DNA from: Candidatus Odinarchaeia archaeon
Lineage (GTDB): Archaea > Asgardarchaeota > Odinarchaeia > Odinarchaeales > Odinarchaeaceae
Length of the DNA stretch: 10,898 nucleotides
Assembly (NCBI GenBank): GCA_029856525.1
Contig: JAHQXC010000043.1
Span: forward strand, 1-10,898
Reading direction: 5' to 3'
The position numbers and the translations under genes are program-made. Numbering within the stretch: the first letter of the stretch is position 1; the number at the start of each line of letters is the position of its first letter. Shown here piece after piece: positions 2,476 through 10,534 of this stretch. The notes under the pieces were generated by a model. That model made no database searches. It had not been told where the DNA came from and was given only the letters and a program-made list of their open reading frames with translations.

Positions 2476-2483
2476 TTTATATA
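2476..2483 (+). promoter_or_regulatory. TATA box (with purine-rich BRE upstream) for the stand-alone 5S rRNA precursor
   Basis: TTTATATA preceded by AAGAATAAA, 28 nt before the first base of the precursor stem at 2512. Confidence 0.7.
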
Positions 2484-2511: not shown

Positions 2512-2662
2512 TGGTAGTATCGCGTGAAAGTTAAGCTTCCGCGCGACTATATAAGTACTGTGGTGCGAGAGCCCACGGGAACATATAGTGCTGCCAGTTC
2601 GCTGGCGGCCATAGGCGGAAGGAAACACCCGTTCTCGTTTCGATCACGGAACGATACTACCA
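2512..2662 (+). repeat. precursor stem with BHB splicing motif flanking the permuted 5S rRNA
   Basis: Perfect 11-bp inverted repeat TGGTAGTATCG 2512-2522/CGATACTACCA 2652-2662; central 4-bp helix CGTG 2523-2526/CACG 2645-2648; 3-nt bulges AAA 2527-2529 and GAA 2649-2651; short inner helix GTT/GAT. Confidence 0.9.
2529..2650 (+). rRNA. rrf: 5S rRNA, circularly permuted gene (3' half 2529-2597, UUCG linker 2598-2601, 5' half 2602-2650)
   Basis: 5' half CTGGCGGCCATAGGCGGAAGGAAACACCCGTTCTCGTTTCGATCACGGA; 3' half AGTTAAGCTTCCGCGCGACTATATAAGTACTGTGGTGCGAGAGCCCACGGGAACATATAGTGCTGCCAG. All five helices pair. I: CTGCCAG 2591-2597/CTGGCGG 2602-2608. II: GCGGAAG 2615-2621/CTTCCGC 2536-2542. III: CCGT 2629-2632/ACGG 2646-2649. 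Loop-E-proximal helix: ACTATAT 2546-2552/ATATAGT 2583-2589. Terminal helix: CTGTGG/CCACGG capped by a GAGA tetraloop. Confidence 0.95.
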
Positions 2663-2663
2663 C

Positions 2664-2673
2664 TTATTCTTTT
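2664..2673 (+). terminator. T-rich archaeal terminator candidate for the 5S precursor
   Basis: TTATTCTTTT immediately after the precursor stem. Confidence 0.45.
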
Positions 2674-2697
2674 AAGCAAAATAAATTTTAAATAATG

Positions 2698-2706
2698 TTT
2701 ATTATA
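2698..2706 (+). promoter_or_regulatory. TATA box of tRNA-Trp
   Basis: TTTATTATA at about -32 to -24 relative to G1 (2730). Confidence 0.55.
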
Positions 2707-2729
2707 CCTATAATAAATTAGTCTATAAA

Positions 2730-2898
2730 GGGGTCGTGGTCTAACCAGGTAGGACGACGGGCTCCAGAAACACTGCCTAAACGGCTGCTGACTTTACGGA
2801 TGAAGATATTCTGGAGCGTACCTGGAGAAACTCGTAAAAAGGATTTGAAAAATCCTTTTGAGGAGTGGTTAAGGGTTCAAATCCCTTCGACCCCACCA
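2730..2898 (+). tRNA. tRNA-Trp(CCA) with two introns (37/38: 2768-2829, 62 nt; 43/44: 2836-2865, 30 nt), CCA encoded
   Basis: Acceptor GGGGTCG/CGACCCC+ACCA, D stem GTCT/GGAC, anticodon stem ACGGG/CTCGT, anticodon CCA 2764-2766, T arm AAGGG-TTCAAAT-CCCTT. Removing both introns gives a normal 77-nt tRNA with variable loop TGGTT. Confidence 0.93.
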
Positions 2899-10385: not shown

Positions 10386-10534
10386 TGGTCCCGCCGACCG
10401 GATTTGAACCGGCGACCCTTCTCGCAGGTTTTCTGAAACCTGTCTCGGTTTCTGCTGTATGAGCCTCGGTTGAAATAATTTAACCGTTCGGTTAAATTCT
10501 ACAGCCGAGTGCTCTGCCACTAAGCTACGGCGGG
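10386..10534 (-). tRNA. tRNA-Tyr(GUA) with two introns (37/38: 10450-10498, 49 nt; 43/44: 10419-10443, 25 nt), CCA encoded
   Basis: Minus strand: acceptor CCCGCCG/CGGCGGG+ACCA (C1-G72, A73, the archaeal Tyr identity), anticodon stem CTCGG/CCGAG, anticodon GTA 10502-10500, T arm GCCGG-TTCAAAT-CCGGT. The spliced product is 75 nt with variable loop GGGTC. Confidence 0.92.

What the first reader, a model, noticed from the sequence alone, without database searches (positions are those of the whole stretch)
2590..2609. Helix I of 5S rRNA capped by a genomically encoded UUCG loop: permanent closure or second processing site?
Seen: GCTGCCAG-TTCG-CTGGCGGC, with no BHB or spacer where 5S ends are normally generated. 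Inference: either the mature RNA has no free ends, removing the need for 5S end-maturation nucleases and possibly adding thermostability, or the circle is reopened here to give a conventional linear 5S, as occurs for permuted tRNAs via a circular intermediate. The closing pair is G-C rather than the C(UUCG)G of the extra-stable motif.
Basis: partly seen in the sequence, partly recalled or inferred. Interest (0 to 1): 0.6.

Follow-up and report, generated by a model that had tools for sequence, protein, structure and literature searches.

The report
Tetraloop-sealed helix I of permuted 5S
The hairpin is the sealed "former ends" helix of a back-to-front 5S ribosomal RNA gene in an Odin-type Asgard archaeon; comparison with about 90 related genomes suggests the seal is a permanent part of a ring-shaped 5S RNA, but no RNA data could be reached to prove it.

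Summary
Observation confirmed. 2590-2609 is an 8-bp stem (one U·G) closed by UUCG, with a G-C closing pair. It joins the 3' strand of 5S helix I directly to the 5' strand. The gene (2512-2662) is circularly permuted and flanked by a canonical bulge-helix-bulge (BHB) motif. Cutting and ligation there would restore the conserved CGGAAGUUAAGC and give a 122-nt circle (2529-2650).

It is the only 5S candidate in this genome and in a closed genome of the same genus. A model of the permuted layout matches about 88 of 151 Asgard genomes in full; other families keep a conventional 5S.

Among 65 distinct caps:
- 54 are tetraloops, 38 of them UNCG.
- 64 loops are 3-5 nt long.
- No spacer or BHB was seen at the cap; one further genome, left out of the 65, carries a 31-nt insert there.
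- The stem covaries strongly (99% of cells paired, 7 of 8 pairs with compensatory changes).

I favour a permanent cap on a closed ring (about 0.6). Reopening at the loop (0.12) and an unligated linear permuted form (0.12) remain open. I found no paper describing a permuted archaeal 5S gene. This scan has already noted the layout in more than 50 other genomes.

The parts
2476..2483 (+). TATA-like box TTTATATA, about 30 nt upstream of the outer stem (likely promoter of a stand-alone 5S unit)
   Evidence: Read from the sequence. Similar boxes sit at the same distance in other families and upstream of conventional Asgard 5S genes. Function inferred.
2512..2522 (+). Outer processing stem, 5' strand (pairs with 2652-2662, 11 bp)
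   Evidence: The outer-stem columns covary in 25 sequences.
2523..2526 (+). BHB central 4-bp helix, 5' strand CGTG (pairs with CACG 2645-2648)
   Evidence: The equivalent helices are GCCG/CGGC and CCGG/CCGG in other lineages.
2527..2529 (+). BHB 3-nt bulge AAA (5' cut site)
   Evidence: The geometry h-H-B-h' matches the canonical archaeal splice motif (established knowledge).
2529..2650 (+). Predicted excised and ligated 5S RNA, 122 nt. The junction CACGGA|AGUUAAGC restores the conserved 5S sequence.
   Evidence: After rotation it aligns colinearly with conventional Asgard 5S at 73-84 identities out of 122. Folded as a circle, the MFE gives the 5S three-way junction.
2529..2597 (+). 3' part of 5S (helix II 3' strand, helices V/IV with loops E/D, helix I 3' strand)
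   Evidence: Rfam RF00001 half-match 2510-2599, 34.5 bits.
2590..2597 (+). Helix I, 3' strand GCUGCCAG
2598..2601 (+). UUCG cap loop joining the native 3' end to the native 5' end
   Evidence: UUCG is kept in all 4 genomes of the genus and in 2 genomes of a sister family of the same order.
2602..2609 (+). Helix I, 5' strand CUGGCGGC, followed by loop A CAUAG
2602..2650 (+). 5' part of 5S (helix I 5' strand, loop A, helix II 5' strand, helix III and loop C)
   Evidence: Rfam half-match starting at 2601, 19.1 bits.
2649..2651 (+). BHB 3-nt bulge GAA (3' cut site)
2652..2662 (+). Outer processing stem, 3' strand
2664..2673 (+). T-rich run TTATTCTTTT, likely archaeal terminator
   Evidence: Read from the sequence. 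Conventional Asgard 5S genes also end in T-runs. Function inferred.

Best explanation
The hairpin is helix I of the organism's only 5S rRNA, encoded in a circularly permuted gene. In this gene the native 3' and 5' ends are fused by a four-base UUCG loop.

Proposed pathway:
1. The unit is transcribed on its own, roughly 2505-2672 (inferred).
2. Its new ends pair into a canonical bulge-helix-bulge motif (shown in the sequence).
3. The tRNA-splicing endonuclease cuts in both bulges, and RtcB joins the ends. This restores the conserved loop B/helix III sequence and yields a 122-nt covalent circle (inferred).
4. The UUCG cap is not a second processing site. It stays in the mature RNA as a compact, solvent-exposed closure of helix I, so the ribosomal 5S has no free ends (inferred).
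For: Gene identity:
- Two Rfam half-matches lie in swapped order.
- This genome has no other 5S candidate, nor has the closed one-contig genome of the same genus.
- The rotated ring is colinear with, and as long as, conventional Asgard 5S.

BHB and enzymes:
- The BHB has a 4-bp helix and two 3-nt bulges on opposite strands. Any symmetric cut gives CACGGAAGUUAAGC, which matches the family consensus.
- The genome holds RtcB and two EndA-domain genes.

Spread of the layout:
- It matches in full, at 44 bits or more, in about 88 of 151 Asgard genomes.
- It is found in MAGs named Odin-, Jord-, Frey-, Atabey-, Baldr-, Njord- and Helarchaeota.

The cap:
- Of 65 distinct caps, 64 have loops of 3-5 nt and 54 are tetraloops. 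38 are UNCG, 42 are YNCG and 1 is GNRA.
- Loop positions 1, 3 and 4 are conserved (U 45, C 42, G 47 of 54), while position 2 is the most variable. This fits selection on the UNCG fold.
- Helix I plus cap is mostly 18-20 nt, the same as the two strands of a conventional helix I (19 nt). There is therefore no spacer to remove.
- No BHB was seen at the cap; one further genome, left out of the 65, carries a 31-nt insert there.
- The stem covaries strongly.

Why reopening looks unnecessary:
- Conventional Asgard 5S genes have TATA-like boxes 20-30 nt upstream and T-runs right after the 3' end. Their ends seem set largely by transcription, and no dedicated endonuclease is implied (inference).

Precedents:
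- E. coli ribosomes with the native 5S ends joined by a tetraloop are active (PMC7283268).
- The permuted SRP RNA of Thermoproteus stays circular and functional (PMC4731332).
Against: - No RNA-level evidence for this organism or genus was reached.
- Selection for a stable UNCG loop could act on folding of the precursor alone.
- Circular intermediates are reopened in permuted tRNAs (PMC3978253) and, by the prevailing view, in archaeal pre-16S/23S rRNA (PMC12918454).
- In six of the 20 families with the layout no UNCG/YNCG cap was seen (triloops, ACAU, AUUC and others), so the loop identity is not essential.
- One genome (G137) carries a 31-nt insertion exactly at the cap. It could be a spacer or a processing element.
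- Here the closing pair is G-C, which earns no extra-stability bonus.
Confidence: 0.6

Rival explanations
1. Second processing site. The ring is only an intermediate. An endonuclease opens it in or next to the UUCG loop, giving a conventional linear 5S with an 8-bp helix I, as happens with permuted tRNAs.
For: - Permuted tRNAs mature through a circular intermediate whose acceptor loop is cut by RNase P and tRNase Z (PMC3978253).
- Circular pre-16S/23S rRNAs are widely held to be re-linearised (PMC12918454).
- The cap sits exactly where conventional ends lie, and the product would have the normal length.
- One genome has a 31-nt insert at the cap.
Against: - No BHB, spacer or conserved cleavage motif was seen at the cap in the 65 distinct caps. 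Stem sequence and length vary freely (7-13 bp).
- Intervening sequences of permuted tRNAs vary from 1 to 74 nt, whereas these caps stay at 3-5 nt.
- tRNAs need a free CCA end, but 5S works with joined ends (PMC7283268).
- Conventional Asgard 5S genes show no sign of a dedicated end nuclease (inference).
Confidence: 0.12
2. Cut but not joined. The endonuclease releases a linear, permuted 5S whose ends lie at the helix II/III junction. The cap is then essential, because it alone holds the two halves together.
For: - Brown-algal mitochondrial 5S rRNAs are permuted in the final, linear product, with helix I replaced by a hairpin (PMC4267664).
- Nothing in the DNA proves that ligation occurs.
Against: - EndA products (2',3'-cyclic phosphate and 5'-OH) are the natural RtcB substrates, and RtcB is present.
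- Excised BHB RNAs are commonly circularised in archaea (PMC4731332; PMC12558985).
- A nick would interrupt one of the most conserved stretches of 5S.
- Earlier reports of this scan claim rejoined forms in environmental RNA of other Asgard lineages. I did not check these.
Confidence: 0.12
3. Chance hairpin, terminator or pseudogene remnant with no role in a functional 5S.
For: Hairpins of this size are not rare in the window.
Against: - The Rfam half-matches place it in helix I.
- It belongs to the only 5S candidate in four genomes of the genus.
- All five helices are conserved and covary across 88 distinct sequences.
Confidence: 0.01

Closest known systems
Permuted, circular SRP RNA of Thermoproteus tenax (Plagens et al. 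2015, eLife, PMC4731332)
   Same: The archaeal non-coding RNA gene is circularly permuted. The new termini form a site cut by the tRNA-splicing endonuclease. Ligation restores a conserved functional region. The circle is the functional form.
   Different: That case is a different RNA (SRP, not ribosomal) in a few species of one genus. Here a universal rRNA is affected across most of a phylum. Circularity was shown by RNA-Seq there but is not shown here.
Circularly permuted tRNA genes of Cyanidioschyzon merolae, green algae and Thermofilum pendens (Soma 2014 review, PMC3978253)
   Same: The 3' half lies before the 5' half, with a BHB at the new ends. A circular intermediate forms in which the native ends are joined by a short intervening sequence.
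   Different: [quoted passage not shown] The 5S cap is a fixed loop of 3-5 nt, mostly UNCG, with no known enzyme to open it.
Engineered E. coli cp5S rRNA with native ends joined by a tetraloop (Huang et al. 2020, PMC7283268)
   Same: Helix I is closed by a tetraloop and new ends are opened in another part of the molecule. [quoted passage not shown]
   Different: That construct is artificial and bacterial, and its new ends are tethered into 23S rRNA rather than ligated to each other.
Permuted mitochondrial 5S rRNA of brown algae (Valach et al. 2014, PMC4267664)
   Same: It is a natural 5S in which the open-ended helix I is replaced by a closed hairpin.
   Different: It is organellar, and the final product is linear and permuted with ends at the three-way junction. 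There is no BHB and no ligation.
Low-abundance circular forms of conventional 5S rRNA in Halobacterium, Sulfolobus/Saccharolobus and Pyrococcus (PMC12558985; bioRxiv 10.64898/2026.03.23.713588)
   Same: These are covalently circular 5S-derived RNAs in archaea.
   Different: They are minor species with variable junctions, made from conventional genes without a BHB. They are interpreted as decay or side products, not as the obligatory form.

Membership tests
5S rRNA (Rfam RF00001) | Sequence and structure match to the family model | tested here: inconclusive
   There are two half-matches in swapped order, at 34.5 and 19.1 bits. Both fall below the 38-bit cut-off because the model is linear. The rotated ring is colinear with conventional Asgard 5S genes that score 57-85 bits, sharing 73-84 identities out of 122.
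5S rRNA (Rfam RF00001) | Helices I-V around a three-way junction, supported by covariation | tested here: met
   RNAalifold on 25 sequences recovers helices I, II, III and IV/V, and 33 of 43 pairs show compensatory changes. Helix I is 99.3% paired in 88 sequences. The circular MFE fold gives the same architecture.
5S rRNA (Rfam RF00001) | It is the genome's 5S (no other copy) | tested here: met
   Only this locus matches in G000, which is 93% complete. The same holds for the three other genomes of the genus, including a closed one-contig genome.
BHB-processed permuted/circular archaeal RNA (Thermoproteus SRP RNA type) | Canonical bulge-helix-bulge at the new termini | tested here: met
   The central helix is CGTG/CACG (4 bp), flanked by AAA and GAA bulges on opposite strands, with an 11-bp outer stem. 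The outer stem covaries and the central helix changes in a compensatory way between lineages.
BHB-processed permuted/circular archaeal RNA (Thermoproteus SRP RNA type) | Splicing endonuclease and RtcB ligase encoded | tested here: met
   PF01139 (RtcB) matches at 75.7 bits in a 438-aa open frame. PF01974 (EndA domain) matches twice, at 105.6 and 72.4 bits.
BHB-processed permuted/circular archaeal RNA (Thermoproteus SRP RNA type) | Ligated junction and circular RNA observed | not testable with these tools
   Two metagenome scans for the ligated junction gave 0 hits.
Permuted-tRNA-type pathway (circle reopened at the native ends) | An intervening sequence or recognisable processing element between the native 3' and 5' ends | tested here: not met
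   Here there is a 4-nt loop only. 64 of 65 distinct caps have loops of 3-5 nt, and no BHB or spacer was seen. One further genome, excluded from the 65, has a 31-nt insert at the cap.
Extra-stable C(UUCG)G tetraloop | UNCG loop sequence | tested here: met
   UUCG lies at 2598-2601. 38 of 54 tetraloop caps are UNCG.
Extra-stable C(UUCG)G tetraloop | C-G closing pair | tested here: not met
   The closing pair is G2597-C2602. ViennaRNA gives G(UUCG)C the same energy as G(UAUA)C (-13.3 kcal/mol), so it earns no bonus. Across the survey the closing pairs are C-G 28, G-C 15, A-U 12, U·G 7 and U-A 5.

The most novel reading that the evidence does not exclude
Most Asgard archaea, including this Odinarchaeia genome, would build their ribosomes with a covalently closed circular 5S rRNA. 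It would be made from a back-to-front gene by the tRNA-splicing endonuclease and RtcB, with the former ends permanently sealed by a UNCG-type loop. That would make it a universal rRNA with no ends and no end-maturation step, in the closest archaeal relatives of eukaryotes.
Probability: 0.55. Interest if true: 0.85.

Novelty: new variant of a known kind. Interest (0 to 1): 0.68.

Why it matters
5S rRNA is a universal ribosome component and is conventionally treated as a linear RNA with free ends. A lineage-wide permuted gene would have three consequences if its product is sealed at helix I and joined at a splice-type site.
- The tRNA-splicing machinery would become essential for ribosome biogenesis in Asgard archaea.
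- It would explain why standard tools report no 5S gene in many Asgard genomes, because the Rfam model scores below its cut-off here.
- It would give a natural counterpart to engineered cp5S ribosomes.

Whether the cap is permanent decides if these ribosomes carry a truly end-less RNA. That question bears on RNA stability, on quality control by exonucleases, and on the evolution of 5S RNP assembly on the path to eukaryotes.

Tried and rejected
RNA evidence, none obtained:
- A metagenome scan for a ligated junction followed by the cap, covering any lineage that fits my motif, gave 0 hits.
- A second scan for the ligated junction of Odin- and Atabey-type sequences gave 0 hits. Earlier reports of rejoined Atabeyarchaeia RNA could therefore not be reproduced by this route.
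- Searches for spurious ORFs read off ring-derived contigs found no candidate. I tried the Odin + frame, the Atabey + frame and the Odin - frame.

Arguments dropped:
- "Helix I is shortened because the ring compensates." Conventional Asgard 5S genes have 7-9 bp and rings mostly 7-8 bp, so there is no clear shortening.
- "Thermostability is the driver." The layout is common in low-GC RNAs.
- The nearest-neighbour comparison of ring and reopened forms is not informative, because multiloop and exterior-loop terms dominate.

Other points:
- By eye I could not fit a canonical BHB to the 31-nt cap insert of G137.
- L134 (G109), a weak model hit, turned out to be a conventional 5S and was excluded.
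- Literature searches for a permuted or circular archaeal 5S gene found only organellar, engineered or low-abundance cases.

Full report
**What is in the sequence**

Positions 2590-2609 read GCTGCCAG-TTCG-CTGGCGGC. This is an 8-bp stem with one U·G (U2592·G2607) and one A-U pair.

A hairpin of this size alone means little. The window holds 14 such hairpins on both strands, against 2.5 expected from dinucleotide shuffles, and 93% of shuffles have at least one.

Its identity comes from context. With relaxed thresholds, Rfam 5S_rRNA aligns 2510-2599 to the 3' part of the model (34.5 bits). It aligns the stretch from 2601 to the 5' part (19.1 bits). The left arm of the hairpin falls on the model's 3' strand of helix I and the right arm on its 5' strand. 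Neither half reaches the 38-bit cut-off, and the default scan reports no 5S at all.

**The gene around it**

The order on the DNA is: outer stem, 3' part of 5S, cap, 5' part of 5S, outer stem.
- The outer stem pairs 2512-2522 with 2652-2662 (11 bp).
- Inside it lie a 4-bp helix (CGTG 2523-2526 with CACG 2645-2648) and two 3-nt bulges on opposite strands (AAA 2527-2529 and GAA 2649-2651).

This is the canonical archaeal bulge-helix-bulge geometry. Because the bulges are AAA and GAA, any symmetric pair of cuts gives the same product. That product is a 122-nt RNA (2529-2650) whose joined ends read CACGGA|AGUUAAGC, which matches the consensus ACuCggAAguUAAGc of the family.

Opened at the cap, this RNA aligns colinearly with conventional Asgard 5S genes and has the same length (73-84 identities out of 122). 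Folded as a circle, the minimum-energy structure is the 5S three-way junction with helices I-V.

A TATA-like box (2476-2483) and a T-run (2664-2673) bracket the unit. It lies between a cytidylyltransferase-like gene and an intron-bearing tRNA, not in an rRNA operon.

**Whose gene it is**
- The assembly (1.32 Mb, 127 contigs, 93% complete) has no other 5S match.
- The three other genomes of the genus have none either, including a closed single-contig genome of 1.4 Mb.
- A pattern scan of named genomes returned the same sequences from MAGs labelled Odinarchaeota. It returned the same layout from Jord-, Frey-, Atabey-, Baldr-, Njord- and Helarchaeota.
- The genome encodes RtcB and two EndA-domain proteins.

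**How widespread it is**

I built a covariance model from 25 permuted sequences and searched 151 Asgard genomes.
- About 88 genomes have a full-length match of 44 bits or more.
- About 30 have weak double matches. All 16 of these that I checked are conventional 5S genes scoring 57-85 bits on RF00001.
- The remaining 32 have no match.

So both layouts exist in the phylum, and they separate by family.

**The cap across the phylum**

I fetched 90 loci. After excluding one false hit (L134) and one cap with an insertion (L127), 65 distinct helix I plus cap sequences remain.

| Feature | Result |
|---|---|
| Loop length | 3 nt in 8, 4 nt in 54, 5 nt in 2, 7 nt in 1 |
| Tetraloop class (of 54) | 38 UNCG (UUCG 25, UACG 6, UGCG 6, UCCG 1), 42 YNCG, 1 GNRA |
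| Tetraloop positions (of 54) | position 1 U in 45; position 2 U in 36, A in 9, G in 6, C in 3; position 3 C in 42; position 4 G in 47 |
| Stem length | 7-8 bp in 48 of 65; 9-13 bp in the GC-rich RNAs (Spearman 0.51, data not independent) |
| Closing pair | not fixed: C-G 28, G-C 15, A-U 12, U·G 7, U-A 5 (counted, before the two exclusions) |
| Family spread | UNCG or YNCG caps in 14 of the 20 families with the layout |
| Covariation of the 8 model pairs | 99.3% of 690 cells paired; 7 pairs with compensatory changes; 0 of 500 shuffles reach the score; slid controls 22-56% paired |

The conserved loop positions are the ones that build the UNCG fold, and the most variable one (position 2) is the structurally free one.

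Helix I plus cap is mostly 18-20 nt. The two strands of a conventional Asgard helix I take 19 nt (9 bp plus one 3' base, or 7 bp plus unpaired ends). The cap therefore replaces the last one or two terminal pairs, and there is no spacer.

**Permanent seal or second cut?**

Evidence that the cap stays:
1. The outer junction keeps a recognisable BHB in every lineage examined, whereas I saw none at the cap.
2. The cap has stayed minimal in length across 20 families. The equivalent linker of permuted tRNAs, which is removed, ranges from 1 to 74 nt (PMC3978253).
3. The pattern of conservation within the loop suggests selection on a folded UNCG. The stem below it changes freely.
4. Conventional Asgard 5S genes have a TATA-like box 20-30 nt upstream of the 5' end and a T-run directly after the 3' end. 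Their ends seem to be set largely by transcription. I see no evidence of a dedicated 5S endonuclease that a ring-bearing lineage could reuse (inference).
5. Free ends are not needed for function. E. coli ribosomes carrying 5S with its native ends joined by a tetraloop are active. [quoted passage not shown]
6. A permuted archaeal RNA that stays circular and functional is already known (PMC4731332). Circular 23S rRNA within ribosomes has also been reported (PMC12918454).

Evidence that it may be reopened, or that the case is open:
- No RNA data were reachable.
- Selection on the loop could serve precursor folding only.
- Circular intermediates are reopened in permuted tRNAs and, by the prevailing view, in pre-16S/23S rRNA.
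- In six families no UNCG/YNCG cap was seen.
- One genome (G137, L127) has a 31-nt insertion exactly at the cap, and I could not fit a canonical BHB to it.
- In Odin the closing pair is G-C, which earns no extra stability in nearest-neighbour parameters.

A third possibility is a cut but unligated, linear permuted 5S. In that form the cap would also be retained and would be indispensable.

**Thermostability**

The layout is common in RNAs of 37-50% GC, so it is not an adaptation specific to thermophiles. Thermophile-like GC-rich RNAs do extend helix I to 9-13 bp. The Odin 5S itself has only 53% GC.

**What could not be done**
- Two scans of metagenome contigs for the ligated junction found nothing. 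One required the junction followed by the cap. The other required the junction alone, for Odin- and Atabey-type sequences.
- Three searches for spurious ORFs predicted on ring-derived contigs found no candidate.

**Earlier reports of this scan**

Earlier reports describe the same permuted 5S in more than 50 other genomes. Some claim rejoined rings in environmental RNA of Loki-, Heimdall- and Atabey-type lineages. I could not verify those claims, and I do not count them as evidence.

**Literature**

I found no paper on a permuted archaeal 5S gene. The nearest reports are:
- organellar permuted 5S (PMC4267664);
- engineered cp5S (PMC7283268);
- low-abundance circles of conventional 5S (PMC12558985; bioRxiv 10.64898/2026.03.23.713588).

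**Verdict**

The hairpin is the sealed helix I of a permuted 5S gene that is conserved across much of the Asgard phylum. My estimates are:
- about 0.6 that it is a permanent cap on a closed 122-nt ring;
- 0.12 that the ring is reopened at the loop;
- 0.12 that the cap is retained in an unligated linear form.

The question needs RNA end mapping or a ribosome structure.

Noticed in passing
window 2730-2895 (+) and 10389-10534 (-): Two tRNA genes each carry two insertions that look like introns. The first has 66 nt in the anticodon region plus about 31 nt near the variable/T arm. The second has 52 nt plus about 26 nt. ARAGORN finds neither gene. Rfam tRNA scores are 41.2 and 47.3 bits.
   Followed up: partly
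window 2662-2730; L009/L050 (Asgardarchaeum abyssi contig): A tRNA gene follows the permuted 5S within about 70 nt here, and within about 15 nt in a different family. This 5S-tRNA linkage may be conserved.
   Followed up: no
L127 (G137:C7:20062-20322, minus strand): A Loki-type permuted 5S has a 31-nt insertion exactly at the helix I cap (ACUGUAAA, then the insert, then UUCG-UUUACGGU). By eye I could not fit a canonical BHB. It could be an expansion segment, a relaxed intron or a spacer. A genome of the same genus (G143) lacks it.
   Followed up: partly
L122, L125, L130, L131 (Loki-type genomes G023, G033, G124, G013): These permuted 5S genes carry a further insertion of about 20-40 nt in the loop C/helix III region. 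It is probably a BHB intron inside the 5S.
   Followed up: no
L010/L066 and L013/L065 (Atabeyarchaeia chromosomes): The outer stem lies about 30 nt further upstream, and a second CGTGA(A/G)AG-like element precedes the real one. There is an extra segment between the outer stem and the BHB on the 5' side.
   Followed up: no
L070/L074 (family f21) versus L143/L153 (conventional 5S, family f16): The permuted cap GCUGAAGG-U-UCUUCGGC reads like a direct head-to-tail fusion of the conventional 3' end GCUGAAGGU(C) and 5' end (A)UCUUCGGU seen in another family. This hints at how the permutation arose.
   Followed up: no
L025 (DATKTP010000169.1, 'Deferrimicrobium' MAG) and L043 (JAPDJY010000015.1, 'Thermoproteota' MAG): Contigs filed under a bacterial MAG and under a Thermoproteota MAG carry Asgard-type permuted 5S genes. 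This is probably binning contamination or mislabelling.
   Followed up: no
G029, G073, G085, G008 (two loci each) and G110 (four): Some Asgard genomes hold several permuted 5S copies. The second copy in G008 (L124) has a degraded helix I.
   Followed up: no
window, whole: Hairpins of 8 bp plus a 4-nt loop are enriched: 14 on both strands against 2.5 in shuffles. Several lie in the tRNA/intron regions (10424, 10467, 10478) and next to the 5S (2635, 2698).
   Followed up: no
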